From Patescibacteria group bacterium UBA6201 (GTDB taxonomy: Bacteria > Patescibacteriota > Minisyncoccia > Phycocordibacterales > UBA918), in assembly GCA_002422025.1 (NCBI GenBank), contig DISV01000005.1, positions 136,834 to 200,833 on the forward strand: 64,000 nucleotides of DNA. The letters are read 5' to 3'. The position numbers and the translations under genes are program-made. A model generated the notes under the pieces. It had not been told where the DNA came from, searched no databases, and saw only the letters and a program-made list of their open reading frames with translations. This document shows, piece by piece, positions 12,936 to 36,665 of the stretch. The number at the start of each line of letters is the position of its first letter. Positions within the stretch are counted from its first letter, which is position 1.

Positions 12936-12948
12936 GGCTTTTGTATGC

Positions 12949-22241: not shown

Positions 22242-22436
22242 CTACTGCACGACCTCGACCTTTTCATTGGGGTCAAGTTCTTCAACCGTCCCGTCGCCGA
22301 GCCAGCTCTTACCGTCTTCGCTGAGCTTTGTCTTAATGTGGAAGCGCTCGTTAAGCTTGATGTAGAGCTGTCCGTTGGGGCGTCGATAGACGGCCTTGTG
22401 CTTGCCAGTAGCTTCGAGTTCACCGATTGTTGCCAT
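22242..22436 (-). CDS. small hypothetical protein (64 aa) in a GC-rich patch
   Basis: GGAGGACTACT-ATG gives a strong SD. The protein starts MATIGELEATGKHKAVYRRPNGQLYIKLNERF and contains no cysteines (so not Cys-rich). It sits between repeat B and attL. Confidence 0.3.
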   Translation of the reverse strand: MATIGELEATGKHKAVYRRPNGQLYIKLNERFHIKTKLSEDGKSWLGDGTVEELDPNEKVEVVQ

Positions 22437-22515
22437 AGTAGTCCTCCGTTGACAAAAGTGTAGGGTCTGGTTCAGGAAGAACAATAGCACACATAGTGTG
22501 CTATGTCAAATATGT

Positions 22516-22528
22516 TCCGCGGGCAGGA
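22516..22528. repeat. attL: 13-bp direct repeat of the tRNA-Asn 3' end (TCCGCGGGCAGGA)
   Basis: Identical to 36429-36441, which is the T-stem/acceptor 3' strand of tRNA-Asn. Marks the left boundary of the AT-rich element. Confidence 0.65.
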
Positions 22529-22823
22529 ATTTCTCTCTTACAGAGCAGTACACCTTTTGGATTTTCTTTTCACAAGCTCAAGAAAATCTCAAAAGGTCTT
22601 CGAATCCTGACACAACAGTCCCCCGGACTGTTGTTCCCGCGGAGCATTAAAAGTAAAGACCACACTTGCGTGTGGCCTAAACTTTTATATGCTCCGCTGG
22701 TTGGATACATTTAGAACTCTTAACTGGAGTCAAATAAGGCAAGATTTTATATTTTCAGGAGTGTCTAATGTATTTCCTGATCTGGTACTTGAAAACTAAT
22801 TTCTATCTTTTAGTAAGCAATTC

Positions 22824-24308
22824 TTAATCTTCAGTCCGCTTTCTTATTTTCTCGTGTTCGATAATAGACCAGTAAGGTTCTGTAAACTTATCTCCCTCTA
22901 CGTCTTGTAAAGCTTCCATCTGTTCGTCAGGAAGTTCTTTTACAATATCCTCAAGATATTTTATGAAATCCTCCTTTTCACTTAAAGAAAATATTTTAGT
23001 ATCAAATTCACTCAACCTTAAATATTTAGGGGTGTTTTTAGGAAGTTCTCTCAGAAGTCTAGCAGATTGTTTGTCTACAAACATTGCATCACAGTATGGC
23101 AAGTAGCTGGATATAAATTGAACGTCAACAGTAGATTTTGGGACTTTCTTTTCTCCGAGTGATGCGGTGCGAGCAAGACCTGCAAACATTACGGAACTTA
23201 TTTTTAAATAAGGAACTTCTAAAAGTGCCTCTGCATCTCTTAAATACCTACCAATAACTTCTGGTAGATCTTCATCTGACAATCCATTTACTCGAGCAAC
23301 TCTCATCAAGGCTTCCATAAGCTCACTTGCAGGGGGTGGGATTATGTCGTCAATATCTAACTTATATGAAGGGTCTGTTGCCATACGTTGCATTGCGACA
23401 ACTCTTCGCTTTACAAAATCTTGCATAACTTGCATCGTACCCTTACCAAGACCAAGAACTTCTTCTTTCGCTCTTGCTTCAAAATCAACGGTTTCTTCTT
23501 GCCACCTTTTCCATATTTCATTTAATTGTTGTTCTGTTGAAGCATTAACTTTCTTCAAGTTTTCCAATTCGTCAGGTCGTGGAGGACCACCAACTGATAC
23601 TCTGAGACCGATTTCCCACTCATTTAAATCTTGTCCAAACGCAATCTCTTGGGGGTTAAATGTAAAAGTTGATTTCCTTTCATTTAACCAATCCTCAAAG
23701 TGGTGCTGGATCTGAAAGCGTTCCACTACAGAGCTTGGATATAACGTCTTTCCGTGTGAAAAATGCTCATAAAGTCGTCTGGCTAAATAAAAATCAATAC
23801 CGCCAGTACTTGATTCATCCTTATGATAAAAACTGTCAGGACACACAAGGGCTTGTGATTTTGATGCTTTTTCTAACGCTATAAACAAGTCTTTCCAAAA
23901 TTGACCAAAGGGTCCGTTCTTCACTCTTTCGTGACTTGGGTGTGAAGTATCCAGTAATTTTATTAAATTACTAATAACAAACTGATCCAAGTAAACTACT
24001 TTTTTCTTCTTAAGCTTGGGTAATTTTATATGTTCTTCGTGGTGGCATTCCGTACATTCACGAGTATATGAATTACTACCAGAGATTGGCGAAAAAACAC
24101 CAAATGCTTTTGGTCGCTTGCAAGAAGGACAGTTCTTATATGGACCAGAGATTAGATCGTTTCTTGTGAATGAAACTACAGTTTTCTTACCACTTCTGAC
24201 CAGATCCCAACAACACTTCTTAAATTTTATCGATTTACCCGTCTCGTCAGTTTTTCCACAAGGACAGGGCTCATTTCTTCCTACTTTAACTTTTTTCATA
24301 CTTATCAA
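22824..24308 (-). CDS. SEC-C motif zinc-binding domain protein, function unknown
   Basis: The N-terminus CPCGK...KKCCW is the SecA C-terminal-like SEC-C metal-binding motif. A second zinc-ribbon-like region follows (CPSCKRP...CTECHHEE). 494 aa. Confidence 0.5.
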   Translation of the reverse strand: MISMKKVKVGRNEPCPCGKTDETGKSIKFKKCCWDLVRSGKKTVVSFTRNDLISGPYKNCPSCKRPKAFGVFSPISGSNSYTRECTECHHEEHIKLPKLKKKKVVYLDQFVISNLIKLLDTSHPSHERVKNGPFGQFWKDLFIALEKASKSQALVCPDSFYHKDESSTGGIDFYLARRLYEHFSHGKTLYPSSVVERFQIQHHFEDWLNERKSTFTFNPQEIAFGQDLNEWEIGLRVSVGGPPRPDELENLKKVNASTEQQLNEIWKRWQEETVDFEARAKEEVLGLGKGTMQVMQDFVKRRVVAMQRMATDPSYKLDIDDIIPPPASELMEALMRVARVNGLSDEDLPEVIGRYLRDAEALLEVPYLKISSVMFAGLARTASLGEKKVPKSTVDVQFISSYLPYCDAMFVDKQSARLLRELPKNTPKYLRLSEFDTKIFSLSEKEDFIKYLEDIVKELPDEQMEALQDVEGDKFTEPYWSIIEHEKIRKRTED

Positions 24309-24346
24309 TAGCGTACATATGATGTAAACTAAAGTAAAGAATAATT

Positions 24347-25846
24347 ATGGTAAATGTCATAAAAAAGAAAAGGCTTCCTTGGATCGATGACCCTAGAAAA
24401 GGTGTCTATATCGATGATGGTGCACTTTTTGTTTTACACTTAATCGCCAATGGTCTCCTTGCTCGCATTGGTTCTGATAATTTTGCGTTGACTATGAGAA
24501 CTCCGATCGAATGGAGTCACGAAGAAATGCTCAAATTTCTGATCAAGGTTTCAGAAGAATATGGTTTTGAGCTTTCTGACTTCTCTACAATGACCTATGC
24601 CTTCACTGAGGATTACGAGAAAGATCTTTTTGATCCCAAGACTAGAACAATACTCCCTGAATACGAGGATGTGTTTCAAAAGTATTTAAAAGAAGTAGAT
24701 GAATTTGAAAAATACAAAAAAGATAATGGTCTTGAGGATCACGGTCCTTTACCGCCTACAAAGGGTAAGAAATTTTATTTACCGCCACAGCTTCCTAAGG
24801 TTTACGAAGGTGGTTATAAGTGGGCACTTGATCAGATTGAAGCTGATACCGAAAAAGGAAAGCTTTTTAAGCGAATTTTTGATGATCAGTTTGGATTAGA
24901 GGATCTGGAACAGATTTTTAAAATGAATCACGTTATTTTAGCGTGGAATGAACCAGAAGACTCTGACAATTATTATCAAAAACAAATAACCGATTCCATT
25001 ATTCACTGGACCTCCTTCAGCGTTGATCCTCCAGAGAGGATAAGGAAGCAGATGCTTAAAGATGTTAATGCTTACTTGAAACTATTTATGACTGATAAGC
25101 TTGGTCCAAATAGAGGCAACAGGAGGGCTCGAGGTGCGTCTGTTATGGAAAGTAGAAACATATACACCTTCAAGAAGCACAAGGATATGTTTCTTGAATA
25201 TTTGGTTGATATGAAAAATCAATTTGGGAATGATCTGACATTTACCGATCCTTTTGATGAGTATCCACTTGAGTCAGATACCGATGCAGAAGAAGTAAAA
25301 GAACGATATAAAAATAGAAAGTTTCTCTTTCTTCATACTCTTTTTGCCTTTGAATATATGGGATGTATAAGAATCCGAGGTCTTGGCAGTAACTGGGATT
25401 GGCGTCGTGATGATCCTACGCAATACGAAGTTGGCTTAACTGTGATCAATCTACAAAAAGCAGTTGATCCTATAGGTGGCAATCAATCAGTAAAATCTAT
25501 CGATCCAATTGTGGTTATAGAAAAAGGTAAGGGTTATATAAAGCTCCACAAGAACGGTCAAAAAATACCGATTGGCACAATTACCAGTAGAAAGTTTCGA
25601 TTAGTAAATATTCTCATTGATCCGTTAGGAACTGCTCGAACTGTAGATAGTATTTTTGATGCTATCAGATTGGAAAAAGACGACGCTGATTCTAGACTTA
25701 AAGATCCATATTTAGCAAAACAAAGGAAAGTTGACATCATTAACTTTGCTTTAAAGGAACTACAGAAGACCAAAGGCTTGAAAGGAAAAGTATCAATCAA
25801 ATACCTCAAAGATAATCAAAGTGCCTATCTTGAACTAACCGTCTAA
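24347..25846 (+). CDS. hypothetical protein (orphan)
   Basis: 499 aa with no recognisable motif. Divergently arranged with the SEC-C gene from a shared 38-bp spacer. Confidence 0.4.
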   Translation: MVNVIKKKRLPWIDDPRKGVYIDDGALFVLHLIANGLLARIGSDNFALTMRTPIEWSHEEMLKFLIKVSEEYGFELSDFSTMTYAFTEDYEKDLFDPKTRTILPEYEDVFQKYLKEVDEFEKYKKDNGLEDHGPLPPTKGKKFYLPPQLPKVYEGGYKWALDQIEADTEKGKLFKRIFDDQFGLEDLEQIFKMNHVILAWNEPEDSDNYYQKQITDSIIHWTSFSVDPPERIRKQMLKDVNAYLKLFMTDKLGPNRGNRRARGASVMESRNIYTFKKHKDMFLEYLVDMKNQFGNDLTFTDPFDEYPLESDTDAEEVKERYKNRKFLFLHTLFAFEYMGCIRIRGLGSNWDWRRDDPTQYEVGLTVINLQKAVDPIGGNQSVKSIDPIVVIEKGKGYIKLHKNGQKIPIGTITSRKFRLVNILIDPLGTARTVDSIFDAIRLEKDDADSRLKDPYLAKQRKVDIINFALKELQKTKGLKGKVSIKYLKDNQSAYLELTV

Positions 25847-26112
25847 GAGGGTTCAAAAACTTATTCAAAAAATAGTTTGAAGGTCGTAATCAAAACGGCC
25901 TTATTTTTATTTACTTTTCTTGTCTATCAGGCAGGAAAAACCCTCTCAAACCCTCTACTAACCTTGAAGTTAGAGGGTTTATTACATTTGGAATGTGCAA
26001 ACGAATCAAGAAAAAGAAATTACTGAGGTGAACCAGAGCAATGATAACCTCATTGGTTTCTTTTCGATTTTGATGCAGGTCGATAAAAGAATTAATCCTC
26101 ATAACTATACCG

Positions 26113-27267
26113 ATGAATCGGAAGAAGAAGATGATTGATACCATAATCCTAACAATTCCGAGAGAACAGATCAGAATGCTTAGTCCAGACGGACGGTATA
26201 TTCCAGCGTGGGATCTACATAGCAAAACAAGCAACTACACAAAGTATGTTAAGAACCCGACTCCGTATGATCGCAAAAATGAAATATATAGACCTCGACT
26301 GACAGGAGTGAAAAGAAGAGTTCGTGGAAACTTTTACAGCTCATTTCTTAAAATTGAGTTTTCAGTACCTAAACTAATATTCGGCAATAACTTAAACGAG
26401 CTTAGCGAATCAGACTTCTCGAAAGTACTCAACACTCTTAAGGAGCGACTAATTGAAGTAGGAGTCTTAGTCTCTGATAAAGACTTACGACAAGCCACTG
26501 TCTCCACTGTTCACTTTGGGAAAAACATTGAGCTTCGTGACGGATATACAGCTTCCTTTGTCACAAAAGAATTATCTAAGATCAATATCAACAAAAAATT
26601 TGATCTAAGTAAAACTAGTTTTAGAAATGACGGTCAGTCCTTGCAAGGGTATACGATGGCACATTCAGTTGTCTTTTATGACAAGGTGTCTGATTTAGGA
26701 AAGAGTAAAAAAAGAGCTATCGACAAAGACCAAGTTCCAAATCAGTTGAGTCTCTTCTCTGGCATTAAAGCAAATACACCAAGTCTTGAGATTCTAAGAT
26801 TTGAGGTCCGCTTGTGTCAGAAGCAAAAGCTTAATGGTGTCTTACGAAAAATTGGTTTCGAAAAAGATCCAACTTTTGAAGATATTTTTACAGCTGAACT
26901 ATGGAAGAAGGCACTCCATTTTTATTGGGATCAAATGATCAAGAACGAAAACTTGTTTCTTTTCAGCAACAAAACTGAGCCTAAGGAACTATTGCAGGAC
27001 CTACTTAAAAAGCACCCGAACTCAAAGGCAAAAGAATATATATTTCTCGTTGGGCTTGATGCTTTATGCAAAAGCAAAGGCGGAATTAGAGATCTGAGAT
27101 CAATTTTAGAAACAAAAGTCAGTCAACGAAGTTGGTACAGGATCAATGATGGAATCAAAAGGCTTAATAAGGCCACTAGTAAAAGGAAGGTCTCTGACTG
27201 GGTTAAGCAAATTGAGGATAGTTTGAATGAGTTCAAGCCGTATCGCATAAAACCAAAACCACCTTAA
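26113..27267 (+). CDS. Rep_trans-like rolling-circle replication initiation protein
   Basis: 384 aa. VVFYDKVSDLGKSKKRAIDKDQ resembles the conserved riYDK...E segment of Rep_trans initiators (PF02486). It lies on an element that also encodes an excisionase and an integrase. Confidence 0.4.
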   Translation: MNRKKKMIDTIILTIPREQIRMLSPDGRYIPAWDLHSKTSNYTKYVKNPTPYDRKNEIYRPRLTGVKRRVRGNFYSSFLKIEFSVPKLIFGNNLNELSESDFSKVLNTLKERLIEVGVLVSDKDLRQATVSTVHFGKNIELRDGYTASFVTKELSKININKKFDLSKTSFRNDGQSLQGYTMAHSVVFYDKVSDLGKSKKRAIDKDQVPNQLSLFSGIKANTPSLEILRFEVRLCQKQKLNGVLRKIGFEKDPTFEDIFTAELWKKALHFYWDQMIKNENLFLFSNKTEPKELLQDLLKKHPNSKAKEYIFLVGLDALCKSKGGIRDLRSILETKVSQRSWYRINDGIKRLNKATSKRKVSDWVKQIEDSLNEFKPYRIKPKPP

Positions 27268-27307
27268 AGTCAGATCTCATTCTTATTAAAAATTAATCAC
27301 CTGAAAT

Positions 27308-27622
27308 ATGGCATTACTTAAAAACTATTTTGAAAAGTGTAAGCAAGACTCACCGATTGTCTATGTAATAACAGCAGAGATGGTCCAAAATCTTGCAGAA
27401 GCAAACCTCGATAGAAAACTGACAGAAAAAGAAATTGAAAGACTTCATTACTCAATGCTTGAAGCTGACAAGCCTAGCTGGCATTTGATGGAGTTTATGA
27501 TCGCTTCCGCAGAGGATGCGATGGATGAAGAAAATAACGATTGGTCAGGTATAGATGAGCTGTACGAGAATCGTAAACATTCGTACTGGCTTGGAGATTA
27601 TTCAATAGGTAACGAAAAATAA
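27308..27622 (+). CDS. hypothetical protein
   Basis: 104 aa and acidic. No motif. Confidence 0.35.
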   Translation: MALLKNYFEKCKQDSPIVYVITAEMVQNLAEANLDRKLTEKEIERLHYSMLEADKPSWHLMEFMIASAEDAMDEENNDWSGIDELYENRKHSYWLGDYSIGNEK

Positions 27623-27626
27623 AACT

Positions 27627-28040
27627 ATGAAAAAGAACAATAAAAATAAAGGTGCTGTAGTACGAAATATATCAAGCAGAATAAAAGATATTTTTAGAGA
27701 TTATGAAAGACAAAAACTTTCTGAATCGATCAAGCAAGGTCTAAGGATGAAAAGGATTCGTGAGTTTGAGTTTCAGTTTGGTCTTGCAAAACACGATGAA
27801 TTACCGCAAGAGTTTGTGGATCGAGTTAAGAAATATAAGGCTATACTTAAAGATGTTGAAAAATCTACGGTCGAAGAAGCCCTTGATAACTTTAAGCGAG
27901 ATATGTATCCGCATACAGAACTAATTGTTTGGGAATGTATAGCAAAACATTATCAAAAAATTACAAAGGCCAATCCAGACTTAACACCGAAAGAGAAGAA
28001 GGATCTCTTCACAGAAGCCTTAATTCACACACTGGGATAG
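27627..28040 (+). CDS. hypothetical protein
   Basis: 137 aa with a basic N-terminus. Its start is 5 nt after the previous stop. Confidence 0.35.
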   Translation: MKKNNKNKGAVVRNISSRIKDIFRDYERQKLSESIKQGLRMKRIREFEFQFGLAKHDELPQEFVDRVKKYKAILKDVEKSTVEEALDNFKRDMYPHTELIVWECIAKHYQKITKANPDLTPKEKKDLFTEALIHTLG

Positions 28041-28086
28041 TGAATTTGTCTTGTAAAGCATTGTCAAGTATAATAACATTAAGCCT

Positions 28087-28269
28087 ATGAAAAACGAGGA
28101 AGAATTTTACACCGCTGAGGAGTTGGCTCAAAAACTCAAGGTCAATATTATGACTATCTACCGCTATATTAAAGCTGGCAAGATAAAGGCGTATAAGTTT
28201 GGGAAAGAGTACAGGGTCGAGTTGAAGGATTTCGAAGCATTTCTCAAAAAACACAAATCAAACAAGTAA
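28087..28269 (+). CDS. xis: excisionase-family (MerR-like HTH_17) DNA-binding protein
   Basis: 60 aa. YTAEELAQKLKVNIMTIYRYIKAGKIKAYKFGKEYRV matches the excisionase HTH consensus. It sits immediately upstream of the PLD-helicase gene. Confidence 0.6.
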   Translation: MKNEEEFYTAEELAQKLKVNIMTIYRYIKAGKIKAYKFGKEYRVELKDFEAFLKKHKSNK

Positions 28270-28270
28270 T

Positions 28271-31200
28271 ATGAAATTATCAAAAATAATCGATAACAAT
28301 AGAAAAACTTTACTCGACACTTTTGTCGATGTAAGTGAAAAGCATAAAGAACTATCAATAGCTACTGGCTACTGGGACCTTGAAGGAATGAGAATGCTTC
28401 TTCCGCAATTGAGAAACTATGAAAAAATACGACTCCTAATTGGTCGAGAACCTCTAATTCCTCGACACCAACTTGAGCAACCCGAACCAGATTATCCTGA
28501 TCAAGACTTTAAATTTGATTTAACTCATATCAAACCAGAGTCTGAACTTAAAGACCTTGTAACAGAGATCAAACAATGGATTGAATCTGGCAAACTAGAG
28601 GTCCGTGTTTACCGCAAAAACTTCTTGCACGCCAAGTGTTTTATCTTCGGATCATATGATTCTGATGAAGCTATTGGGATTATTGGATCTTCAAACTTCA
28701 CAAAGAATGGCCTGACTCATAATACCGAACTCAATGCTCTGGAATCAGATCATCGTGTAGTTGTTTTTGAACCTAAGAATAAAGAACAAGAAGTTGGCCA
28801 CTTGTACTGGTTTGATAGTTTTTGGAATGATGAAGGAACTGAAAAATGGAATGAGCAATTTGGATCAATTCTTGAATCGTCACCTGTTGGAGATAAACTT
28901 TTCAGTCCATATGAGACGTACATAAAAACACTTTACGAGCTGTACAAAGAAGAAATTATCGACGATGAGTTAGTGGTCAATGAGAGCGAAAATGGACGTA
29001 CTCTTTTCGATTTCCAACACAAAAATACCCAAGCTCTACTGCGAAGACTCAGGAAGTATAAAGTTGCAATGCTTTCTGACTCTGTTGGTCTTGGTAAAAC
29101 TCTGACTGCTATCAATGTGATTAAGCAGTATTTAGAAGACGAAGAAGGTAAAAAACGAGTTGAAATTATATGTCCTAAATCTTTGGTCCAGCAATGGGAA
29201 AAGGAAATGGCTACTGAGGGTATTTATAATCACACTCCTATCACTCTTCAGAACCCTAATGAAATTGAGAAAAAGCGAGAACTTGATGCAATTGCAAGTG
29301 TTACTTTGTTTGTGATCGATGAATCTCACAACCTCCGACAAACTAATGGAAAACGTTTTAAGCAAGTGCTTGATTGGGTACGAGAAAATCCAAAAGCTCA
29401 CGTTCTTTTGCTTACCGCTACCCCGATCAATAATCAATTGAGTGATCTTACCAACCAGATTCTACTTGGAACTGGTGGTGATGCTGACGGTCTAAGACTG
29501 ACTGTAGCTGATGAGAATAATCAGACTGAACAAAGAAACTTCTATCAGATTGTTGAGAACCTCAGAAAGAAGATCAATCAGGACCTCAAGCGAGATGGAA
29601 AAATAGACTATAACCACATTAAACAAGTGATGACTCCAATCATTAGAACGTTTGTGGTTCGACGTACCCGACAAGGAATTGAACAAGAATATGGGTATTT
29701 GATGATCAATGGCGAAAAGAAAGTCTTTCCAGTAGTAGTACCTGAAGTTCTTGAATACGTACTTGATAACAAGCTCGTAAAAGAACTTAAATCAGTCACT
29801 TCTGAATCGATTCCGCTTGATGAAATATACGAGCTTGATCCTGAGCAAGTAGTTGAAAAATGTAAGGATCTTAAGCACCCAATAGATCAAATTTCTAATG
29901 TATCTAAGAAACTTGATAAAGAAAAACTGGATGGCGAAAATCCGATGTATTTTGTATTCCAACTTATATTAATGCTCGGATTCATTCCTTATCGATGGAT
30001 GATGTATAGGGCTGATTATTATGGAAAGACACGAGATGAAATTAAGGAACTGAAGATCAGTTCAGATAAAAGTAAAAAGCTACTACTTCAGCTTGGTATT
30101 TTCGGCATTCTTCGGACCGTATTCCTAAAACGAATGGAGTCTTCAGTGAGTGCCCTAGCTTCTTCGTTGGAAACCTATTCATACAAGCTTGATCTATTCG
30201 AGAAAGGCGTCAATGAAGGAAAAATTGTATCAATGGATGATCTTGATGCTCTTGAATCAAGCCTTGGAGACGAGGATGTTGAGGTGGATGAGAAAGCTCT
30301 TGAAGAGCATACTCTCGATGAGGTTGATGATAAAAACTACGAGCTTGAATCACTTAAGAAAGATATTCAGCGAGAAAAGCAATTAGTATCTCTAATTACT
30401 GCTCAACTTAAGATTCTTAATAAGGATGATTCTAAAATCAAGTGTTTTGCAGATCAGCTCAACACTTTACGAAAGCGAGATCCAAATCAAAAAGTACTCG
30501 TGTTCTCTTACTTTGCAGACACCATTAAATATCTCGAAGAGAATATTGGTAAGTATTGTGATTTTCTTAACGAAGAAAACACTGGCTTTGTATCTTCTAA
30601 AAACAAAGGTGATTCTGAAAATATGGCTTCTCGTTTTTCTCCAAAATCTAAAAAGTATCAGCTTAAAGATGGCGAAACTGAACTTCAGTATCTATTCTCA
30701 ACAGATGTATTGTCTGAGGGTCAAAACCTTCAGGATTCAGGCATCTTAGTGAACTATGATCTTCACTGGAATCCAGTGCGTATGATTCAAAGGAATGGTC
30801 GTGTAAACCGTCTAGGATCTGAATTTGAAGAGGTGTATATCTACAATATGAAGCCAGAGCAAAAGCTTGATACTTATCTCGAATTGGTAAAAAGACTTGA
30901 AGGAAAGATCAATTTGATCAGAAATACCGTAGGTACTGATACTCCAGTTCTTGATGAACCAGAAAACCCTATTGAGTATACAGACTCAGTTACCGATATT
31001 TACAGTTCTGATGTTGAAACGAGATTGAAGGCTCTACAAGACGCTGAAAAAGCTTCGGACTTCTTGCTTTCAGAAGATGAGTTTGTGGTTGATCTGAAAA
31101 AGTTTAACTCAAACGAAAGCTATCCAAAGGAATATAAAGAGAAGGTCTATCAGATGTCAGATGGCAAGTGGGCTGTATGTCCAAAACAAGAAGCTCGAGG

Positions 31201-31756
31201 TCAAGAACGGCCTGAGGTGTTTGGTCTCGCACGACTCTATTCAGAAGCAGAGTCAGATCCTATTGGTTATCAGTTCGCAAAAATAGATCGCACTGGTTCG
31301 CAAATTCAAGCTGTATCTCAATTACAAGCTCTTGAATGGCTACGAACGACACAAGAAGACAACGATCGAGTGATGGATAAGATTACTGCTGATAAGGTGG
31401 CCGTTAAAGATCAACTGGGATCAAAGGTTATCCAATACTTTGGGCAAGAAGAAACTGGATCACTTATTGGGCAAGAAAATAATATCCTCCGATTCCTTTA
31501 TGAAAATGGATATGCACAAGAAGAGATTGATCTGGTCCGAGACGTCTTTAAAACGACAAACATATTCTACAAACGTGAAGTAGATAAGTTGAAGCGGAAT
31601 GTAATGCGACAGAAAAATAAAGGTGAAATGTATCAGGATGATCTACGAGAGCTAGTAAAACTAGCTAAGGAAATTGATAAGAATACGAATGATGAAGAAT
31701 CATTAACACCCAAGAAAGTTGAAAGTGTGTTGTTTTATGTAAATCGAAATGAGTAA
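28271..31756 (+). CDS. PLD (HKD) nuclease fused to SNF2-family helicase (DISARM DrmC+DrmD-like fusion)
   Basis: The N-terminal PLD domain carries HAKCFIFGS...GSSNFT (HxK...GSxN). Helicase motif I is LSDSVGLGKT, motif II is VIDESHN, and the C-terminal helicase domain includes LSEGQNLQ...QRNGRVNRLGS. 1161 aa. Confidence 0.8.
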   Translation: MKLSKIIDNNRKTLLDTFVDVSEKHKELSIATGYWDLEGMRMLLPQLRNYEKIRLLIGREPLIPRHQLEQPEPDYPDQDFKFDLTHIKPESELKDLVTEIKQWIESGKLEVRVYRKNFLHAKCFIFGSYDSDEAIGIIGSSNFTKNGLTHNTELNALESDHRVVVFEPKNKEQEVGHLYWFDSFWNDEGTEKWNEQFGSILESSPVGDKLFSPYETYIKTLYELYKEEIIDDELVVNESENGRTLFDFQHKNTQALLRRLRKYKVAMLSDSVGLGKTLTAINVIKQYLEDEEGKKRVEIICPKSLVQQWEKEMATEGIYNHTPITLQNPNEIEKKRELDAIASVTLFVIDESHNLRQTNGKRFKQVLDWVRENPKAHVLLLTATPINNQLSDLTNQILLGTGGDADGLRLTVADENNQTEQRNFYQIVENLRKKINQDLKRDGKIDYNHIKQVMTPIIRTFVVRRTRQGIEQEYGYLMINGEKKVFPVVVPEVLEYVLDNKLVKELKSVTSESIPLDEIYELDPEQVVEKCKDLKHPIDQISNVSKKLDKEKLDGENPMYFVFQLILMLGFIPYRWMMYRADYYGKTRDEIKELKISSDKSKKLLLQLGIFGILRTVFLKRMESSVSALASSLETYSYKLDLFEKGVNEGKIVSMDDLDALESSLGDEDVEVDEKALEEHTLDEVDDKNYELESLKKDIQREKQLVSLITAQLKILNKDDSKIKCFADQLNTLRKRDPNQKVLVFSYFADTIKYLEENIGKYCDFLNEENTGFVSSKNKGDSENMASRFSPKSKKYQLKDGETELQYLFSTDVLSEGQNLQDSGILVNYDLHWNPVRMIQRNGRVNRLGSEFEEVYIYNMKPEQKLDTYLELVKRLEGKINLIRNTVGTDTPVLDEPENPIEYTDSVTDIYSSDVETRLKALQDAEKASDFLLSEDEFVVDLKKFNSNESYPKEYKEKVYQMSDGKWAVCPKQEARGQERPEVFGLARLYSEAESDPIGYQFAKIDRTGSQIQAVSQLQALEWLRTTQEDNDRVMDKITADKVAVKDQLGSKVIQYFGQEETGSLIGQENNILRFLYENGYAQEEIDLVRDVFKTTNIFYKREVDKLKRNVMRQKNKGEMYQDDLRELVKLAKEIDKNTNDEESLTPKKVESVLFYVNRNE

Positions 31757-34700
31757 TCAAGTATTAGACAAAATTAAAGATATTCAAAAAGAACTCAATG
31801 AGCTTGAGGTTAAAAAAGACCTGCCTCAATCACAAAGAGTAATTGCTTCAATTGTCAGACTTCTTGATGATTCTGTTTCCGTTGATGATCAATCTCTCTT
31901 TCAGCTTTTTACTGATAGTGACGGAAAGATCAGAGCTAATGCTTCTTGGTTCTATGAAGACTCAGTAATGACTGACAGAAAAGCGACGTATAAAGTACAC
32001 CCTCAAAACAACCTGAATCTTGATATTAAGCTCTACGGTATTGCTAAGCCTTCAAAGCGAACGATTGCTTGGGCTCAGTCACTAACGCCAAACTTTGAAG
32101 ACGAACCTTTCAACAAGAACTTCAATGTTGGAATTGATTTTATTGTTCCAAAGAGTGCTGATCGGATCATTGTGGTCCTAAGTAATAACTGGGTTATCCG
32201 AACGCTTGAACTTAAAGGAAAGCTTACCGTTACATTCCAAGAGATCCTCGCACGTTGGGCTGAAATAAAAAACTTTGATAATAAAACTGAGCTTCACAAT
32301 ATCCTTTGGGAAAGTTTCGACATTCAGCCTCTCAACAAGAAGTTTTACTCTGGAATTAGTGAACGCTTTACGCTTCTTCGTCAGTATCTTGTTAAGGAAA
32401 AGGTGTTTGATGAAAAGCACGCTTCTTTATTTGCAAACCGACTCCTTGGTCGAGTTATCTTTTGTTGGTTCTTGGACAAAAAAGGGATCATTAATCCTGA
32501 TCAGAAGTATTTTGACTCTGAATCTTTTGAGAACGACAATGAATACTACAAAACTAAACTGGAAAGACTTTTCTTTAGTGTTCTAAACACTCCAATTTCT
32601 GATCGAGAAAGAAAACTCGAAGGCGAAGAGACTCTGTTTGGAAAGGAAGGAAAAACAACATTATTTTCAGTTGATGATGTAACACCATTCCTAAACGGTG
32701 GTCTTTTTGAAGCACGAGAGAATGATCTCTACAACGATTCAAAACTCTCATTCCCGAAGAATTACTTTGACGATCTGTTTGGGTTTCTTTCAGGCTACAA
32801 CTTCACGACTGATGAAAGTACAAGCCAATTCCAACAAGTAGCGATTGATCCAGAGATGCTTGGTCGTATCTTTGAAAACCTTCTTGCTGAAATGACAGAA
32901 GAGACTGGCGAACAAGCCCGAAAAGCCAAAGGTGCTTTCTATACGCCCCGAGAGATCGTGGATTATATGTGCAAGGAATCTCTCAAGGAATATCTAAAGA
33001 CTAAGATTGAGCACGATGAGCAGTTGGATCAACGCCTGTATCAGCTTATAGACGCTCCCGATAAAGACTTTCAGGACCAAGACCATAATTGGCGAAGGGA
33101 CTGGAAACCTTACAAAGCGGACATTCTGAAGGCTCTCGATGAACTGAAGGTCCTTGATCCAGCCTGTGGGTCTGGAGCTTTTCCAATAGGTATGCTCCAG
33201 CTTCTAGTGCGTGTATATGAGCGTTTAGAGGCTCGTTTTGACTCGTATAAGACGAAATTGGGCATTATTGAGAAGAATATCTATGGTGTAGATATAGAGC
33301 CAATGGCAGTTGAAATTGCACGGCTTCGAACGTGGCTTTCGATTATCGTTGACGAAGAATCTGACTCTAAAAAGATCAAACCTCTTCCAAACCTAGAGTT
33401 CAAATTCATTTGTGCTAACTCGCTTATAGATCTCGATAAAAACGGAAGTAATACATTTGGTGATGATCCAGAACTGCAAGAAAAGCTTGCGTCTATTCGT
33501 GATGGTTATTTCAATACCGAGAGTTTGAATAAGAAGAAGAAACTACGAGGTGATTATGTAAAATTGGTAACTCAAGGCGAAGGTTTGTTTGGAGAATCCA
33601 AGAAATCAAAACAATTGAAGACTTATAGACCGTTTGATAATGAAGCTCAAGCTGATTTCTTTAATCCTAGGTTTATGTTTGGAACTGATTCTTTTGACAT
33701 TATTATTGCAAATCCGCCTTACGTAAGACAAGAGAAGTTCACTCATTTAAAAGAGTCTCTTAAAAAAGAGTACGGAGATTTCTTTAATGGCAGATCCGAT
33801 TTGTATACATTTTTTATCAAGCTAGGATTTCATCATCTAAAAGTAGGCGGTGTATTTTGCTACATTACGTCTAACAAGTTTTTAGTTAGAGGGTATGGAA
33901 AAAATACAAGAAAATTACTTACGGAAGATTCAGTATTAAAGAAACTTGTAAACTTTGGTGAGCTACCTGTTTTTCAGGCATCTGTAGATTCAATAATTAT
34001 ACTGGCTCAAAAAGAAAAGCCAGAAAAAGAAGATGAAGTATGTTTTGTTCAGGTAAAACAGGCAAACGAAATTGAGAATCTTTATAACTTTTTCGAACAA
34101 GCTAAGGAGTGTTTGAATTTAAGTTCTTTAGATAGTGGAGAATGGTCTCTTCAAGATAAGGAAAAAATAAAGATATTAAACAAAATAAAAGGTAATGAAT
34201 TAACACTTGAGAACTATTTTGAGCAAAAAAGTTTTGCTGGAATTAAGACGGGTTATGATGATGCGTTTGTGATTGATGCCAACACAAAAGAAAAACTCGT
34301 TGCTGAAGATCCTCAGAATTTAGATCTAATTAAACCTTGGTTAAGAGGAAAAGATGTTAAAAAATGGAAAGTTGACTATAAGAATTTATATCTTATATAT
34401 ATCCCACTCAATAAAATTGATATTGAAGAATACCCATCGATCAAAAATCATCTTTTAAAATTTAAGGAAAAATTATCTAAGAGAGCAACAAAACAAAAGT
34501 GGTATGAAATTCAACAGCCACAAGAAAAGTTCACAGAGCTTTTTGAAGCTCCAAAGATAATTTACCCAGATTGTGCAAAAGAAATGCGAGCATCATTCGA
34601 CTTAACAAAGTCATATGGCACGATGGCTATGTATTTCTTGCCTTATGATCCATTGATACTTGGGTTGTTAAACAGTAGGCTTTTCGACTGGTATTCTCGA

Positions 34701-34964
34701 ATGACTTTCGCAACATTTGGAGATCCGTGGAAAGGAGGTCGAATCATTTTTAAGACAATTTATATGTCTAAGTTTCCTCTTCCTGATTTGCACGGTCCTG
34801 AGATAGAAAGGATAAAGAGCAATGTAGAAATCATTATTAAAAACATCGATCAAGGTGATAAAAACCAAAATGCTAATCTCGAGAATCAGATAAATGAAGA
34901 CGTAATGACTCTGTACAGACTAGATGAAAATGAGAAAAACATTTTACGTACTTATAAATTATGA
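31749..34964 (+). CDS. N6-adenine DNA methyltransferase, PglX/MmeI (Eco57I)-like gamma class with C-terminal target-recognition region
   Basis: Motif X is GAFYTPREIVDYM, motif I is VLDPACGSGAFP, and motif IV is IIIANPPY. The N-terminal region has PFLNGGLFE and the C-terminal region has AGIKTGYDDAFVI. Its start overlaps the preceding gene by 8 nt. Confidence 0.85.
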   Translation: MSNQVLDKIKDIQKELNELEVKKDLPQSQRVIASIVRLLDDSVSVDDQSLFQLFTDSDGKIRANASWFYEDSVMTDRKATYKVHPQNNLNLDIKLYGIAKPSKRTIAWAQSLTPNFEDEPFNKNFNVGIDFIVPKSADRIIVVLSNNWVIRTLELKGKLTVTFQEILARWAEIKNFDNKTELHNILWESFDIQPLNKKFYSGISERFTLLRQYLVKEKVFDEKHASLFANRLLGRVIFCWFLDKKGIINPDQKYFDSESFENDNEYYKTKLERLFFSVLNTPISDRERKLEGEETLFGKEGKTTLFSVDDVTPFLNGGLFEARENDLYNDSKLSFPKNYFDDLFGFLSGYNFTTDESTSQFQQVAIDPEMLGRIFENLLAEMTEETGEQARKAKGAFYTPREIVDYMCKESLKEYLKTKIEHDEQLDQRLYQLIDAPDKDFQDQDHNWRRDWKPYKADILKALDELKVLDPACGSGAFPIGMLQLLVRVYERLEARFDSYKTKLGIIEKNIYGVDIEPMAVEIARLRTWLSIIVDEESDSKKIKPLPNLEFKFICANSLIDLDKNGSNTFGDDPELQEKLASIRDGYFNTESLNKKKKLRGDYVKLVTQGEGLFGESKKSKQLKTYRPFDNEAQADFFNPRFMFGTDSFDIIIANPPYVRQEKFTHLKESLKKEYGDFFNGRSDLYTFFIKLGFHHLKVGGVFCYITSNKFLVRGYGKNTRKLLTEDSVLKKLVNFGELPVFQASVDSIIILAQKEKPEKEDEVCFVQVKQANEIENLYNFFEQAKECLNLSSLDSGEWSLQDKEKIKILNKIKGNELTLENYFEQKSFAGIKTGYDDAFVIDANTKEKLVAEDPQNLDLIKPWLRGKDVKKWKVDYKNLYLIYIPLNKIDIEEYPSIKNHLLKFKEKLSKRATKQKWYEIQQPQEKFTELFEAPKIIYPDCAKEMRASFDLTKSYGTMAMYFLPYDPLILGLLNSRLFDWYSRMTFATFGDPWKGGRIIFKTIYMSKFPLPDLHGPEIERIKSNVEIIIKNIDQGDKNQNANLENQINEDVMTLYRLDENEKNILRTYKL

Positions 34965-36466
34965 AATCAATAATCTTTGCCAGAGTATCAGATAAAAAAC
35001 AGGACTCAAACGAGGCTCAGGTGTCTCGTATTTCTGAATACATAAGAGCCAAAGATCTTCAGGTTTGGAAAACATATGAGCTTGAAGAATCCTCTACTCG
35101 TGGCGATCGAGAAAAATTTCAGGAAGTTATTCAAGAGATCGAGAAGAGCAAAGAACCAATTGCTCTGGTAGTTGATACTGTAGACCGACTTCAGCGAAGC
35201 TTTAAGGAGTCAGTGGTCCTTGATGAGTTTAGGAAGTCTGGAAAGCTTGAGATCCATTTTTATCGTGAAAATCTGGTCCTGCACCAAAACTCAAACAGTG
35301 CCGATCTTATTCGTTGGGATATAGCTGTTATGTTTGCTCGAAGCTATGTTCTTCAACTTAGTGACAACGTAAAGCGAAAACAAGAGCAAATGAGGCGTAG
35401 TGGTGAATGGCCAAGTAAGCCACCAATTGGATACAAAAGTATCTATGATGAAAATGGCACAAGGACCGATATTATTCCTGATCCAGAGACAGCTCACTTT
35501 GTCGTAAAAATGTTTGAGCTTTACGCTACAGGCAATTATTCCATCAAAACACTTCGTGATCATATGATCAAAGTTGGAATGCGAGGCACTTCTGGCAAGA
35601 AGATTGCTCCAAGTATGATCGATAACATTTTGAACAATACGTTTTACTACGGTGTTGCGTATTCAAGGACCAAAAAGATTTCATACGATCACAAGTACAA
35701 ACCGCTAGTTTTTAAAGAGCTTTTTGATAAGTGTCAGGAAGTAAAGAAGGGTTGGAATAAGAAACCATTTAAATATGCTTCAAAACCTTTTGTCTTGAGA
35801 GGGTTAGTTCGTTGTGCCAAATGTGGCTGTGCAATGAGTCCAGAGATTAAGAAAGGAAAATATGTCTATTACAGCTGTACCAATGCCAGAAAAGATCTCT
35901 GTACAGATAAGGTCTACATACCCGAAAAAGACCTCCTGAAGCCAATACACGAGGTTCTAGAGGCTTTTAACAGCATTCCTCAGAAGACTATTGATGAAGT
36001 AGTTCTTGGGCTCAAGAAGTCAAACGAGTCAAAGAGTCTGTACCACCTGAACGCCATAGATGGTCTTCGGTCCGAATACGACAAAACTCAAGACAAGATC
36101 GATCGAATGATGGACCTACTCATTGAGGGTAGTATTACTAAAGATGACTATGACAGAAAGTTGAAAGAGCTTAAGTCAAAACAGCACGATCTCAATATAC
36201 AAATTGAGGACCACACTAAGGCAGACGAAAACTACTATATTACTGCTTCTACAGTGTTAAATTTGGCTAAAAGTGCATTGACGCTATTTGAAAGTTCCGA
36301 AGTGCAAGAAAAAAGAGCTATGCTCAATTATCTACTTCAGAACTGCGTCGTAAATGGAAAAAAGCTAGAGTTTTCAATACGATCTCCGTTTAACCATATA
36401 CTAGAATTGCACAATCAACCTACTGGGCTCCGCGGGCAGGATTCGAACCTGCGACCAATCGATTAA
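34961..36466 (+). CDS. large serine recombinase (integrase)
   Basis: The resolvase catalytic domain has FARVSDKKQ (Ser nucleophile) and VDTVDRLQRS. A recombinase domain and a zinc ribbon (CAKCGCAM...YYSCTNARKDLC) follow. An ATGA overlap couples it to the MTase stop. Its last about 40 nt run into the tRNA-Asn gene. Confidence 0.8.
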   Translation: MKSIIFARVSDKKQDSNEAQVSRISEYIRAKDLQVWKTYELEESSTRGDREKFQEVIQEIEKSKEPIALVVDTVDRLQRSFKESVVLDEFRKSGKLEIHFYRENLVLHQNSNSADLIRWDIAVMFARSYVLQLSDNVKRKQEQMRRSGEWPSKPPIGYKSIYDENGTRTDIIPDPETAHFVVKMFELYATGNYSIKTLRDHMIKVGMRGTSGKKIAPSMIDNILNNTFYYGVAYSRTKKISYDHKYKPLVFKELFDKCQEVKKGWNKKPFKYASKPFVLRGLVRCAKCGCAMSPEIKKGKYVYYSCTNARKDLCTDKVYIPEKDLLKPIHEVLEAFNSIPQKTIDEVVLGLKKSNESKSLYHLNAIDGLRSEYDKTQDKIDRMMDLLIEGSITKDDYDRKLKELKSKQHDLNIQIEDHTKADENYYITASTVLNLAKSALTLFESSEVQEKRAMLNYLLQNCVVNGKKLEFSIRSPFNHILELHNQPTGLRGQDSNLRPID

Positions 36467-36499
36467 CAGTCGACCGCTCTACCGCTGAGCTACCGCGGA
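36425..36499 (-). tRNA. tRNA-Asn (anticodon GTT)
   Basis: Cloverleaf folded by hand. The acceptor stem is TCCGCGG/CCGCGGA, the anticodon loop is CTGTTAA, the T-arm is GCAGG-TTCGAAT-CCTGC, and the discriminator is G. Confidence 0.8.
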
Positions 36500-36592
36500 A
36501 TATCCTTGATCTGCGATATTAGATCAAGTAGGCACATTCTACAGAAAAACTGAATTGTTTCAACTTTAACGATGGTGTATATTACGCATTCT

Positions 36593-36665
36593 GGGCCCAT
36601 AGTATAGTGGTAGAACGAATCCATGGCATGGATTAGGTCCGAGTTCGATTCTCGGTGGGTCCACC
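36593..36665 (+). tRNA. tRNA-Ala (anticodon GGC)
   Basis: The acceptor stem GGGCCCA/TGGGTCC contains a G3:U70 pair (the Ala identity element). The anticodon loop is ATGGCAT, the T-arm is CCGAG-TTCGATT-CTCGG, and the discriminator is A. Confidence 0.6.

What the first reader, a model, noticed from the sequence alone, without database searches (positions are those of the whole stretch)
22516..36499. About 14-kb AT-rich integrative element inserted at the 3' end of tRNA-Asn, bounded by a 13-bp direct repeat
The last 13 nt of the tRNA-Asn T-stem/acceptor (TCCGCGGGCAGGA, 36429-36441) are repeated in the same orientation at 22516-22528.

The interval between them is visibly AT-richer than the flanks. 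It encodes a large serine recombinase next to the tRNA, an excisionase-type HTH, a Rep_trans-like initiator and orphan proteins.

This is a classic tRNA-targeting integrative element (IME/ICE-like, or a cargo-carrying island). It has no phage structural genes and it carries the defence module.
Basis: seen in the sequence. Interest (0 to 1): 0.7.

Follow-up and report, generated by a model that had tools for sequence, protein, structure and literature searches.

The report
Serine-recombinase defence island in tRNA-Asn
A 13.7-kb mobile island carrying a restriction-like defence system sits at the very 3' end of a tRNA-Asn gene, placed there by a large serine recombinase, an enzyme type that surveys up to 2020 had barely linked to tRNA genes; it belongs to a widespread, apparently undescribed family.

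Summary

**What holds.** The 13-mer, the tRNA-Asn, the low GC (37.0% against 44%), the large serine recombinase (LSR), the excisionase-type HTH, a Rep_trans-like protein and the defence genes are all present.

**What does not hold.** The 13-bp repeat was not made by the island.
- It is the 5' end of a ~145-nt structured, tRNA-Asn-like unit (22512-22655).
- That unit also lies beside tRNA-Asn in relatives that lack the island.

**Where the island sits.**
- A related metagenome contig (L077) has the empty site. Window sequence up to 22690 runs straight into GCTCC and the tRNA.
- The island is therefore about 22696-36431 (13,736 bp), inserted at GCTCC, which is tRNA positions 70-74.
- The left end carries a conserved arm found in nine or more related elements. 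Its GAAC motif lies 5 bp further out than in the tRNA arm, which I recall as the attP/attB signature of LSRs.
- The LSR reading frame ends inside the tRNA gene, with its stop in the anticodon loop.

**The family.**
- In 40 of 53 related genome loci an antisense tRNA gene (Asn, Ser, Arg, Gln, Leu, Pro) lies at or over the LSR gene's 3' end.
- In about 20 loci the order is Rep-like gene, HTH, cargo, LSR. The cargo slot nearly always holds a restriction-modification system.

Excision was not observed.

The parts
22512..22655 (+). Structured tRNA-Asn-like unit. It is not part of the island.
   Evidence: Covariance model R1 scores 144.6 bits here and finds 18 copies in relatives. Of the paired cells, 91.4% form standard pairs, and 26 of 42 pairs show changes on both sides, against 12.7 +/- 2 in shuffles. 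G-U pairs outnumber A-C 28 to 9, which favours the + strand. The unit is present next to tRNA-Asn in island-free loci.
22657..22690 (.). Terminator-like hairpin plus AT-rich trailer. This is the B arm of attL, i.e. host sequence that abuts the tRNA 3' end at empty sites.
   Evidence: L077 bases 1-55 are homologous to this sequence and continue directly into GCTCC and tRNA-Asn. The same trailer, '...TTTTATAT|GCTCC', occurs in L080, L082, L083, L090 and L092.
22691..22695 (+). attL core, GCTCC. The crossover lies within CTCC.
   Evidence: Nine attL junctions share (G/A)CTCC, and the sequences to their left are unrelated.
22696..22727 (+). P' arm of the element (GCTGGTTGGATACATTTAGAACTCTTAACTGG).
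   Evidence: It is conserved at the left end of L010, L011, L012, L013, L015, L017, L049 and L068. It is 37/38 identical to the marine copy even though the neighbouring DNA is unrelated. GAAC lies at +19 here, against +14 in the tRNA arm.
22824..24308 (-). 494-aa protein with an N-terminal SEC-C-type Cys motif. Variable left-end cargo, function unknown.
   Evidence: No family hits. The marine copy carries a different 301-aa allele with PF02810 SEC-C.
24347..25846 (+). 499-aa protein of unknown function with winged-helix-like parts.
26113..27267 (+). Rep_trans-like rolling-circle initiator or relaxase candidate. A backbone gene of the family.
27308..28040 (+). Two small ORFs (104 aa and 137 aa) of unknown function.
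   Evidence: No family above threshold. The 104-aa ORF is conserved in L010, L014, L032 and L049.
28087..28269 (+). Excisionase-family HTH (HTH_17). A backbone gene at the head of the cargo operon.
   Evidence: PF12728 scores 53.6 bits and TIGR01764 scores 49.2 against a 28.8 cut-off. Homologues occur in 21 related loci, always upstream of the cargo.
28271..31756 (+). Fusion of a PLD (HKD) nuclease and an SNF2 helicase. Presumed restriction subunit.
   Evidence: PLDc_2, RE_NgoFVII, SNF2-rel_dom and Helicase_C. PADLOC 'HKD+Snf2' at 4.5e-45. It scores below the curated cut-offs of DrmD and other named systems.
31749..34964 (+). Eco57I/MmeI-type N6-adenine DNA methyltransferase with a TaqI_C specificity domain.
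   Evidence: Eco57I at 2.5e-37, plus N6_Mtase and TaqI_C. PADLOC REase_MTase_IIG at 5e-167. It scores below the PglX cut-offs. The C-terminal ~430 aa are not conserved in the copies that are otherwise 92% identical.
34961..36466 (+). Large serine recombinase, 501 aa. Its last 40 nt lie inside the tRNA gene, and its TAA stop is the complement of U35-U36-A37.
   Evidence: [quoted passage not shown] The C-terminal domain matches A118 integrase 4kis at E = 1.3e-5. The same overlap occurs in 22 of 24 tRNA-Asn loci.
36395..36460 (+). attR. The P arm (...CAATCAACCTACTGG) is followed by the core GCTCC (36427-36431) and then the B' arm, which is the tRNA acceptor and T-arm (GCGGGCAGGATTCGAAC).
   Evidence: All 24 tRNA-Asn junctions show P|GCTCC|B'. 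In 23 of them GAAC lies at +14; the exception, L028, reads TTTGAAC at that position.
36424..36500 (-). tRNA-Asn(GUU), the integration target. It is intact.
   Evidence: ARAGORN.

Best explanation
A 13.7-kb integrative element (about 22696-36431) has been inserted by its own large serine recombinase (LSR) into the extreme 3' end of the tRNA-Asn gene.

**Recombination sites.**
- Recombination occurred between an attP and an attB.
- attP is the 3' end of the LSR gene, then the core GCTCC, then the P' arm GCTGGTTGGATACATTTAGAAC.
- attB is the tRNA trailer, then GCTCC (tRNA positions 70-74), then the acceptor and T-arm GCGGGCAGGATTCGAAC.
- The crossover lies within CTCC, so positions 1-73 of the mature tRNA are unchanged. 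Only the 3' trailer is replaced.

**Inferred recognition.**
- The recombinase domain reads the acceptor and T-stem bases.
- The zinc-ribbon domain reads the near-universal T-loop sequence TTCGAAC.
- This would explain why relatives use other tRNAs.

**Gene organisation.**
- The backbone is a Rep_trans-like protein, an excisionase-family HTH and the LSR. Cargo sits in one operon between HTH and LSR.
- Here the cargo is a PLD-SNF2 protein plus an Eco57I-type methyltransferase.
- Relatives carry type I, IIS, IIG or III restriction-modification systems in the same slot. The module most likely acts as an ATP-dependent restriction-modification system.

**Shown.** The insertion site, the att architecture, the family and the cargo pattern.

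**Inferred.**
- Excision to a circle, with the HTH as a candidate directionality factor or regulator.
- Rolling-circle replication or mobilisation by the Rep-like protein.
- The route of transfer between cells.
For: **Empty site.**
- L077 reads window 22637-22690, then GCTCC, then window 36432 onward. tRNA-Ala and ung follow in the same order as in the window.
- Eight or more further island-free relatives show the same trailer|GCTCC|tRNA junction.

**Mobility.**
- Marine copies (L068 and others) are about 92% identical to window 24256-36501, plus the 38-bp P' block. They sit at a tRNA-Asn with a different acceptor stem and have unrelated left flanks.
- L057 holds a decayed copy in a host whose flanking proteins are 40-75% identical.
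- Near-identical LSRs have C-termini that diverge exactly after ...QPTGL, which is GGGCTC.

**att architecture.**
- Nine attL and 24 attR junctions share GCTCC.
- GAAC lies at +19 in P' and at +14 in B'.
- Junctions of attP type occur in L018, L021, L015 and L075.

**Enzyme.**
- All three LSR domains score above cut-off.
- The C-terminal domain matches the A118 integrase.

**Family.**
- In 40 of 53 loci an antisense tRNA gene lies at or over the LSR gene's 3' end.
- The backbone genes are conserved.
- The cargo slot holds restriction-modification systems.

**Composition.** GC is 37.0% against 44%.

Against: - No excised circle or restored attB was seen for this particular element. The scanned JGI contig collection did not return the window's own attL or attR either, so this absence says little.
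- The empty site comes from a related species (70-94% nucleotide identity), not from a strain of the same species. All contigs found through exact flank proteins carried the island, or were truncated or chimeric.
- The B arm shows no recognisable half-site, and the exact crossover dinucleotide is unresolved. Dyad symmetry points to GC, whereas L015's attL points to CT, TC or CC.
- The 5-bp rule for the zinc-ribbon motif is recalled from work on A118-type integrases and was not tested here.
- The window's Rep-like protein does not reach Pfam thresholds.
- The restriction activity of the PLD-SNF2 protein is inferred only.
Confidence: 0.85

Rival explanations
1. A ~14-kb tRNA island spans 22516-36441, and its integration duplicated the last 13 nt of tRNA-Asn. 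The element would carry a copy of the tRNA 3' end, as tyrosine-integrase islands do.
For: The 13-mer is exact and unlikely by chance. It brackets the low-GC stretch to within 175 bp. L049 and L057 also have 13-bp, host-specific repeats at a similar position.
Against: - The same repeat, spaced about 175-184 bp apart, flanks a conserved structured unit next to tRNA-Asn in relatives without any island.
- In L077, window 22637-22690 abuts the tRNA directly.
- The 92%-identical marine element has no such repeat. Its homology to the window begins at 22690.
- No tyrosine integrase is present.
Confidence: 0.04
2. A fixed, no longer mobile defence island. The region was acquired through the LSR mechanism but is now a stable part of this lineage's chromosome, with recombinase and att sites as relics.
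For: Every contig recovered through exact flank proteins carries the island. L057 shows that decay happens: its LSR has a ~1-kb internal deletion and the backbone is lost. No circular junction was found.
Against: In the window the LSR, the Rep-like gene and the HTH are full-length open reading frames. The P' arm is 37/38 identical to the marine copy, and both cores are intact. About 92% nucleotide identity across hosts whose flanks are far more diverged, or unrelated, argues for recent transfer.
Confidence: 0.1
3. The recombinase is not an integrase but an invertase or resolvase that switches the adjacent restriction-modification genes (phase variation). On this view the low-GC block arrived by other means.
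For: The LSR gene is translationally coupled to the methyltransferase gene through a 4-nt overlap and lies in one operon with the defence genes. The methyltransferase specificity region differs between otherwise near-identical copies.
Against: - No significant inverted repeats lie in or around the defence genes.
- The protein has the Recombinase and zinc-ribbon domains typical of integrases.
- The same gene sits at the island/tRNA junction in dozens of loci with unrelated cargo.
Confidence: 0.01

Closest known systems
SCC elements (SCCmec and relatives) moved by Ccr large serine recombinases
   Same: - An LSR inserts a cargo island at the 3' end of a conserved housekeeping gene without inactivating it.
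- att cores are short.
- Elements can lie in tandem or composite arrays. The attP-type junctions in L015 and L075 suggest the same here.
- From my own knowledge, some SCC elements carry replication genes and restriction-modification systems.
- CcrB is the best NCBIfam match of the LSR, but far below its cut-off (67.6 against 900).
   Different: - The target here is a tRNA gene, not rlmH.
- There is one recombinase, not a CcrA/B pair.
- The replication module is Rep_trans-like, not a helicase/primase.
- The hosts are Patescibacteria and other uncultured lineages.
- The LSR reading frame ends inside the target gene.
Tyrosine-integrase genomic islands in tRNA genes (Islander-type islands, P4-like elements, PICIs, tycheposons)
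   Same: The target is the 3' part of a tRNA gene, the gene stays functional, the integrase gene sits at the tRNA-proximal end, and cargo includes defence genes.
   Different: - The recombinase family differs.
- No tRNA-fragment duplication is made, only a 5-7 bp shared core.
- The crossover lies at positions 70-73 rather than in the anticodon loop or T-loop.
[quoted passage not shown]
Integrative mobilizable elements of streptococci that combine a serine integrase with a Rep_trans-family (MOBT-type) protein (reviewed in PMC5704250)
   Same: A small element (under 20 kb) with an LSR, a Rep_trans-fold protein and cargo, and no conjugation machinery of its own.
   Different: As I recall, the streptococcal elements insert in protein-coding genes or inside other elements. 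No oriT or helper conjugative element is known here. The Rep-like protein matches Rep_trans by fold, not by Pfam threshold.
NgoAVII/CglI-type PLD + ATPase restriction enzymes, DISARM (DrmD, DrmMI, DrmC) and type IIG/BREX PglX methyltransferases (compared with the cargo module)
   Same: The domains are shared: PLD nuclease, SNF2/SF2 ATPase and an Eco57I-type adenine methyltransferase with its own specificity domain.
   Different: - PLD and SNF2 are fused in one 1161-aa protein.
- No DrmA/DrmB and no BrxC/PglZ are present.
- All scores fall below the curated cut-offs of the named systems.

Membership tests
Large serine recombinase (serine integrase) | An N-terminal resolvase catalytic domain with the nucleophilic serine, followed by Recombinase and zinc-ribbon domains | tested here: met
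   PF00239 scores 52.8, PF07508 scores 49.7 and PF13408 scores 48.0, all above cut-off. Ser10 lies in FARVSDKKQ, and the Cys cluster CAKCGC...C...C is visible in the sequence. Residues 218-470 match A118 integrase 4kis.
Large serine recombinase (serine integrase) | Short attP and attB sites that share only a small core, with the outer (zinc-ribbon) motif about 5 bp further from the centre in attP than in attB | tested here: met
   The core is GCTCC. GAAC lies at +19 in nine P' arms and at +14 in 23 of 24 B' arms; L028 reads TTTGAAC at that position. The 5-bp rule itself is recalled from the literature.
Large serine recombinase (serine integrase) | Recombination through a 2-bp staggered cut at a central dinucleotide, with excision dependent on a directionality factor | not testable with these tools
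   The crossover is narrowed to CTCC only. The HTH_17 gene is a candidate factor, with no evidence.
Rep_trans rolling-circle initiators / MOBT relaxases | The Rep_trans fold | tested here: met
Rep_trans rolling-circle initiators / MOBT relaxases | A sequence match to PF02486 or PF05144 above threshold | tested here: not met
   The window protein has no hit. Among 32 homologues, 7 match Phage_CRI (best 1.4e-5) and 2 match Rep_trans (8e-4). The profile finds no PDB sequence, and Foldseek is negative.
Rep_trans rolling-circle initiators / MOBT relaxases | A catalytic tyrosine and a nick site (dso or oriT) | tested here: inconclusive
   Tyr189-Asp190-Lys191 is invariant in the family and resembles the Y-N/D-K motif I recall from RepC/RepD. 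No origin was identified.
Integrative and conjugative element (ICE) | Its own type IV secretion or coupling-protein genes | tested here: not met
   None of the nine ORFs matches such families.
Prophage or phage satellite | Capsid, terminase or other packaging genes | tested here: not met
   PHROG hits are limited to integrase, excisionase, helicase and methyltransferase.
Classical tRNA-gene island (Islander definition) | A tyrosine integrase, with the island flanked by the tRNA gene and a displaced tRNA fragment that the island generated | tested here: not met
   No tyrosine integrase is present. The tRNA-like 13-mer belongs to a unit found without the island.
DISARM / BREX | The full gene set (DrmA and DrmB, or BrxC and PglZ) and scores above cut-off | tested here: not met
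   DrmD scores 148.6 against a 610 cut-off and PglX scores 99 against 500. The partner genes are absent.
Restriction-modification system | A methyltransferase with a specificity domain plus a nuclease partner | tested here: inconclusive
   The methyltransferase, the TaqI_C specificity domain and the PLD nuclease-helicase partner are all present. The same slot holds typical type I, IIS, IIG and III systems in relatives. Activity was not tested.

The most novel reading that the evidence does not exclude
This is a large, undescribed clade of serine integrases specialised on tRNA genes. The zinc-ribbon domain would dock on the near-universal T-loop sequence (TTCGAAC). The recombinase domain would read the acceptor and T-stem bases that differ between tRNAs. 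Target choice could then be switched between tRNA species by few changes.

Because the integrase reading frame crosses the crossover point, the enzyme's C-terminal tail changes with its state. It is 501 aa when integrated, with the tail encoded by the antisense tRNA. It is predicted to be 524 aa in the attP form. This could act as a built-in sensor of integration state or of directionality.

The family would then be the main vehicle that moves restriction-modification systems among Patescibacteria.
Probability: 0.25. Interest if true: 0.8.

Novelty: new variant of a known kind. Interest (0 to 1): 0.62.

Why it matters
- **Gap in the record.** Surveys of integrative elements treated tRNA genes as the territory of tyrosine integrases (PMC4383910). 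TIGER (2020) found only 14 of 297 serine-integrase elements in tRNA or tmRNA genes and asked for experimental proof (PMC7192596). A large screen of serine integrases does not mention tRNA at all. Here 40 loci from several phyla show one consistent, mechanistically readable architecture.
- **Testable sites.** The analysis gives concrete ~50-bp attP and attB sequences to test. These enzymes are the preferred tools for inserting large DNA, and a tRNA 3' end is a conserved landing pad present in almost every genome, including Patescibacteria, which are hard to engineer.
- **Defence gene flow.** The result shows how small-genome bacteria acquire and exchange restriction-modification systems.
- **Caution for island mapping.** A significant direct repeat next to a tRNA gene is not proof of an island boundary.

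Tried and rejected
- **Exact-protein look-ups of flank genes.** FabG-like and Ung queries returned only island-bearing, truncated or chimeric contigs and no empty site. L008 looked like an empty site, but it is a chimeric join at the tRNA T-arm, with GC-rich DNA on its left.
- **First metagenome scan.** In hindsight the left anchor lay outside the tRNA-like unit.
- **Search for long direct repeats in 40 related loci.** Only the window, L049 and L057 have them. This led away from the repeat as an att site.
- **'Remnant of an older element' idea for 22529-22690.** I dropped this once covariation and island-free copies showed a conserved structured unit.
- **Rfam on 22300-22900.** Only spurious microRNA hairpin matches appeared.
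- **Phase-variation idea.** No inverted repeats were found.


Full report
**1. The observation**

ARAGORN finds tRNA-Asn(GUU) at 36424-36500 on the minus strand and tRNA-Ala at 36593-36665. The 13-mer TCCGCGGGCAGGA occurs exactly twice, at 22516 and 36429, where 0.01 matches are expected by chance.

GC falls to 0.32-0.40 between about 23 and 36 kb. With the refined limits the island has 37.0% GC, against 44.4% and 44.0% in the flanks. All 92 other 13.7-kb windows lie between 43.5% and 45.0%.

The interval holds nine ORFs:

| Coordinates | Strand | Product |
|---|---|---|
| 22824-24308 | - | 494-aa protein with a SEC-C-type Cys motif |
| 24347-25846 | + | 499-aa orphan |
| 26113-27267 | + | 384-aa protein |
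| 27308-27622, 27627-28040 | + | two small ORFs (104 and 137 aa) |
| 28087-28269 | + | 60-aa HTH_17 protein |
| 28271-31756 | + | 1161-aa PLD-SNF2 fusion |
| 31749-34964 | + | 1071-aa Eco57I-type methyltransferase |
| 34961-36466 | + | 501-aa large serine recombinase (LSR) |

The last four genes abut or overlap. The LSR frame runs 40 nt into the tRNA gene, and its TAA stop (36464-36466) is the complement of U35-U36-A37.

**2. The recombinase family is tied to tRNA genes**

- The LSR has more than 1,600 homologues, mostly in uncultured Patescibacteria.
- A scan of species-representative genomes gave 53 loci from several groups: Patescibacteria, Rickettsiales, Bacteroidota, Bdellovibrionota-like bins and bins labelled Gammaproteobacteria.
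- In 40 of the 53 loci an antisense tRNA gene lies at or over the 3' end of the LSR gene. The target is tRNA-Asn in 23, and otherwise Ser, Arg, Gln, Leu or Pro.
- The junction analysis below uses 24 tRNA-Asn sites: these 23, less the very distant L061, plus the window and the marine copy L068.
- In 22 of those 24 sites the overlap is 40-43 nt, with the stop at the same tRNA position.

**3. The conserved backbone and the cargo slot**

tblastn with the window's proteins shows that the 384-aa protein has homologues in 22 loci and the HTH in 21. The order is always 384-aa gene, HTH, variable genes, LSR.

The variable genes are co-oriented and tightly packed. They are nearly always restriction-modification systems:

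| Cargo | Loci |
|---|---|
| Type III | L010, L011, L015, L017 |
| Type I | L013 |
| Type IIG | L024 |
| AlwI-type IIS with two Dam-like methylases | L009, L016 |
| C5-methylase system | L034 |
| PLD-SNF2 + methyltransferase pair | window, L014, L032, L057, marine copies |

By position and domain content, the PLD-SNF2/methyltransferase pair is most simply read as an ATP-dependent restriction-modification system. It does not reach the curated cut-offs of DISARM, BREX or other named systems.

**4. The 384-aa protein**

Pfam, NCBIfam and PHROGs find nothing for the window protein. Among 32 homologues, 7 weakly match Phage_CRI and 2 match Rep_trans.

Tyr189-Asp190-Lys191 is invariant. It resembles the catalytic-tyrosine motif I recall for this family, but I did not test that.

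**5. Where the element really ends**

*Near-identical recombinases.* LSRs in one 90% cluster have different C-termini that diverge exactly after ...QPTGL, which is GGGCTC. The forms seen are:
- RGQDSNLRPID in the window
- PRQDSNLRPID in the marine copies
- WGWDSNPQPLD
- a read-through form in P0253; this fits the group I introns found in the tRNA-Asn genes of some relatives, though P0253's own context was not examined
- two long tails

So host DNA begins just after GCTC.

*The marine copy.* The marine element (L068, GCA_001757125.1) is about 92% identical to window 24256-36501. It also shares a 38-bp block, window 22690-22727, that stands alone between unrelated DNA. L068 has no long repeat at all.

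*The left-end block.* That block, (G/A)CTCC followed by NNNNN-TTGGATACRTTTAGAACTC, sits at the left end of nine elements. The sequences to its left are unrelated.

*attP-type junctions.* In L018, L021, L015 and L075 the same kind of arm follows the LSR gene directly. These may be unintegrated forms or tandem arrays.

*Motif spacing.* All 24 tRNA-Asn junctions read P arm | GCTCC | tRNA. GAAC, part of the T-loop sequence TTCGAAC, lies at +14 in 23 of them. All nine left junctions have GAAC at +19. A 5-bp outward shift of the outer motif in attP relative to attB is what I recall from the A118-type integrase work. The C-terminal half of this protein matches that integrase (4kis).

**6. The empty site**

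A second scan used a degenerate pattern able to match attB, attP, attL or attR. It returned 20 loci.

L077 is the key case:
- Its first 55 bases are homologous to window 22637-22690.
- GCTCC follows, then the tRNA-Asn gene (94% identical to window 36427-36548).
- tRNA-Ala, ung and the following genes come next, in the window's order.

The trailer is the hairpin plus ...TTTTATAT. The same trailer | GCTCC | tRNA junction is seen in L080, L082, L083, L090, L092 and others.

The island is therefore an insertion of 13,736 bp between the two GCTCC copies (22691 and 36427). GCTCC corresponds to tRNA positions 70-74. L015's attL reads ACTCC, which places the crossover within CTCC. Positions 1-73 of the tRNA are unchanged by integration.

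**7. What the 13-bp repeat is**

In island-free relatives the 13-mer recurs at 175-184 bp intervals next to tRNA-Asn, once or twice in tandem. The units align with the window's 22512-22695 and show compensatory changes in several hairpins.

A covariance model built from seven copies finds 18 copies, including L016, which was not in the training set. The structure counts are:

| Measure | Observed | Control |
|---|---|---|
| Cells forming standard pairs | 91.4% | 74% in shuffles; 39-49% when partners are slid |
| Pairs with changes on both sides | 26 of 42 | 12.7 +/- 2 in shuffles; 8-11 when slid |

G-U pairs outnumber A-C 28 to 9, which favours the window's + strand, convergent with the tRNA.

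The unit mimics tRNA-Asn:
- its ends form the same acceptor-type helix
- it ends ...CCCGCGGAGCA
- it holds UUCGAAUCC

Rfam has no match.

The repeat is thus part of a separate conserved element, probably a tRNA-like small RNA gene, and was not made by the island. In L057 a deletion has fused the start of such a unit to the HTH gene region. This explains the 13-bp repeat I found there.

**8. Mobility and state**

The hosts differ:
- L057's flanking proteins are 40-75% identical to window proteins, and its synteny is rearranged.
- The marine host's flanks show no nucleotide similarity to the window, and its tRNA-Asn has a different acceptor stem.
- The islands themselves are about 92% identical. 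This argues for horizontal transfer.

L057 is a decayed copy, with a ~1-kb internal deletion in the LSR and the backbone lost. The window's copy has intact genes and sites.

I found no junction that proves excision of this copy. The scanned collection did not return the window's own attL or attR, so the absence is uninformative. The attP-form reading frame would give a 524-aa LSR instead of 501 aa.

No inverted repeats support a phase-variation role. orf499 shows only winged-helix-like similarity.

**9. Comparison with what is known**

[quoted passage not shown] TIGER (2020) found 14 of 297 serine-integrase elements in tRNA or tmRNA genes. Its authors called this previously unreported and in need of experimental proof (PMC7192596).

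A large LSR screen does not mention tRNA. A 2025 study of Patescibacteria islands noted a type I restriction-modification island without mentioning recombinases or tRNA (PMC12455944). My searches of the open-access library found no description of this family. Subscription literature was not covered.

The closest analogues are:
- SCC elements, where an LSR inserts at the 3' end of a housekeeping gene
- tyrosine-integrase tRNA islands
- streptococcal mobilizable elements that combine an LSR with a Rep_trans-type protein

**10. Verdict**

The finding is a real mobile defence island. The mechanism is not the classical one. This is a new variant of a known kind, and it comes with a clear, testable att-site model.

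Noticed in passing
window 22512-22655 (+), terminator-like hairpin 22657-22676; also L081 1267-1412 and 1446-1590, L083 124-343 and 1610-1755, L080 838-988, L092 3478-3625, L085 3821-3966, L049 1930-2068, L016 9356-9500: A ~145-nt structured unit that mimics tRNA-Asn, with the same acceptor-type helix, UUCGAAUCC and an ending ...CCCGCGGAGCA. It lies convergent with tRNA-Asn, in one or two tandem copies. Covariation is strong (26 of 42 pairs) and Rfam has no match. It is probably an undescribed tRNA-like small RNA of Patescibacteria. Its function is unknown.
   Followed up: partly
L081 923-1189 and L085 3498-3738: The tRNA-Asn genes of island-free relatives are split in the anticodon loop by a group I intron (Rfam RF00028, 73 and 87 bits). 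This agrees with a 2026 report on Patescibacteria tRNA introns (PMC13011429). One LSR variant (P0253, 508 aa) has a tail that fails to stop in the anticodon loop, which could be read-through into such an intron. Its contig was not examined.
   Followed up: partly
window 33700-34960 (C-terminal ~430 aa of the methyltransferase): Nucleotide homology to the otherwise ~92%-identical copies (L057, L068) breaks off here. Those copies encode 989-992 aa instead of 1071 aa. The specificity (TaqI_C) part appears to have been exchanged, so the copies probably recognise different sequences.
   Followed up: no
L057 3198-10512: A decayed copy of the island in another Patescibacteria genome. The LSR has an internal deletion of about 1 kb, everything left of the HTH gene is lost, and the start of a tRNA-like unit is fused to the HTH upstream region.
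   Followed up: partly
L075 9215-9330; L015 9431-9500; L018 10900-10958; L021 11430-11491: The LSR 3' end is joined to a P'-type arm (GAAC or GAAG at +19) instead of a tRNA. These are either unintegrated forms or tandem arrays. In L075 the next genes are T5orf172, a type I restriction-modification system and a PIN protein.
   Followed up: partly
L008 1-300: An ENA contig with an identical Ung protein is a chimera. GC-rich foreign DNA is joined at the conserved T-arm of tRNA-Asn, leaving a mismatched acceptor stem. It could easily be mistaken for an empty site.
   Followed up: yes
window 6300-13400 versus L057 10727-17517 and L068 20209 onward: In two related hosts the genes to the right of tRNA-Asn (PF1765-like, S30AE, fmt, def and others) match window 6.3-13.4 kb in inverted order. 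The tRNA-Asn neighbourhood has been rearranged between these lineages.
   Followed up: no
window 22242-22436 (-): A 64-aa ORF with a strong ribosome-binding site and a consensus-like promoter (TTGACA, 17 nt, TATTGT) starts just left of the 13-mer. No family matches it, and it is absent from relative L081.
   Followed up: no
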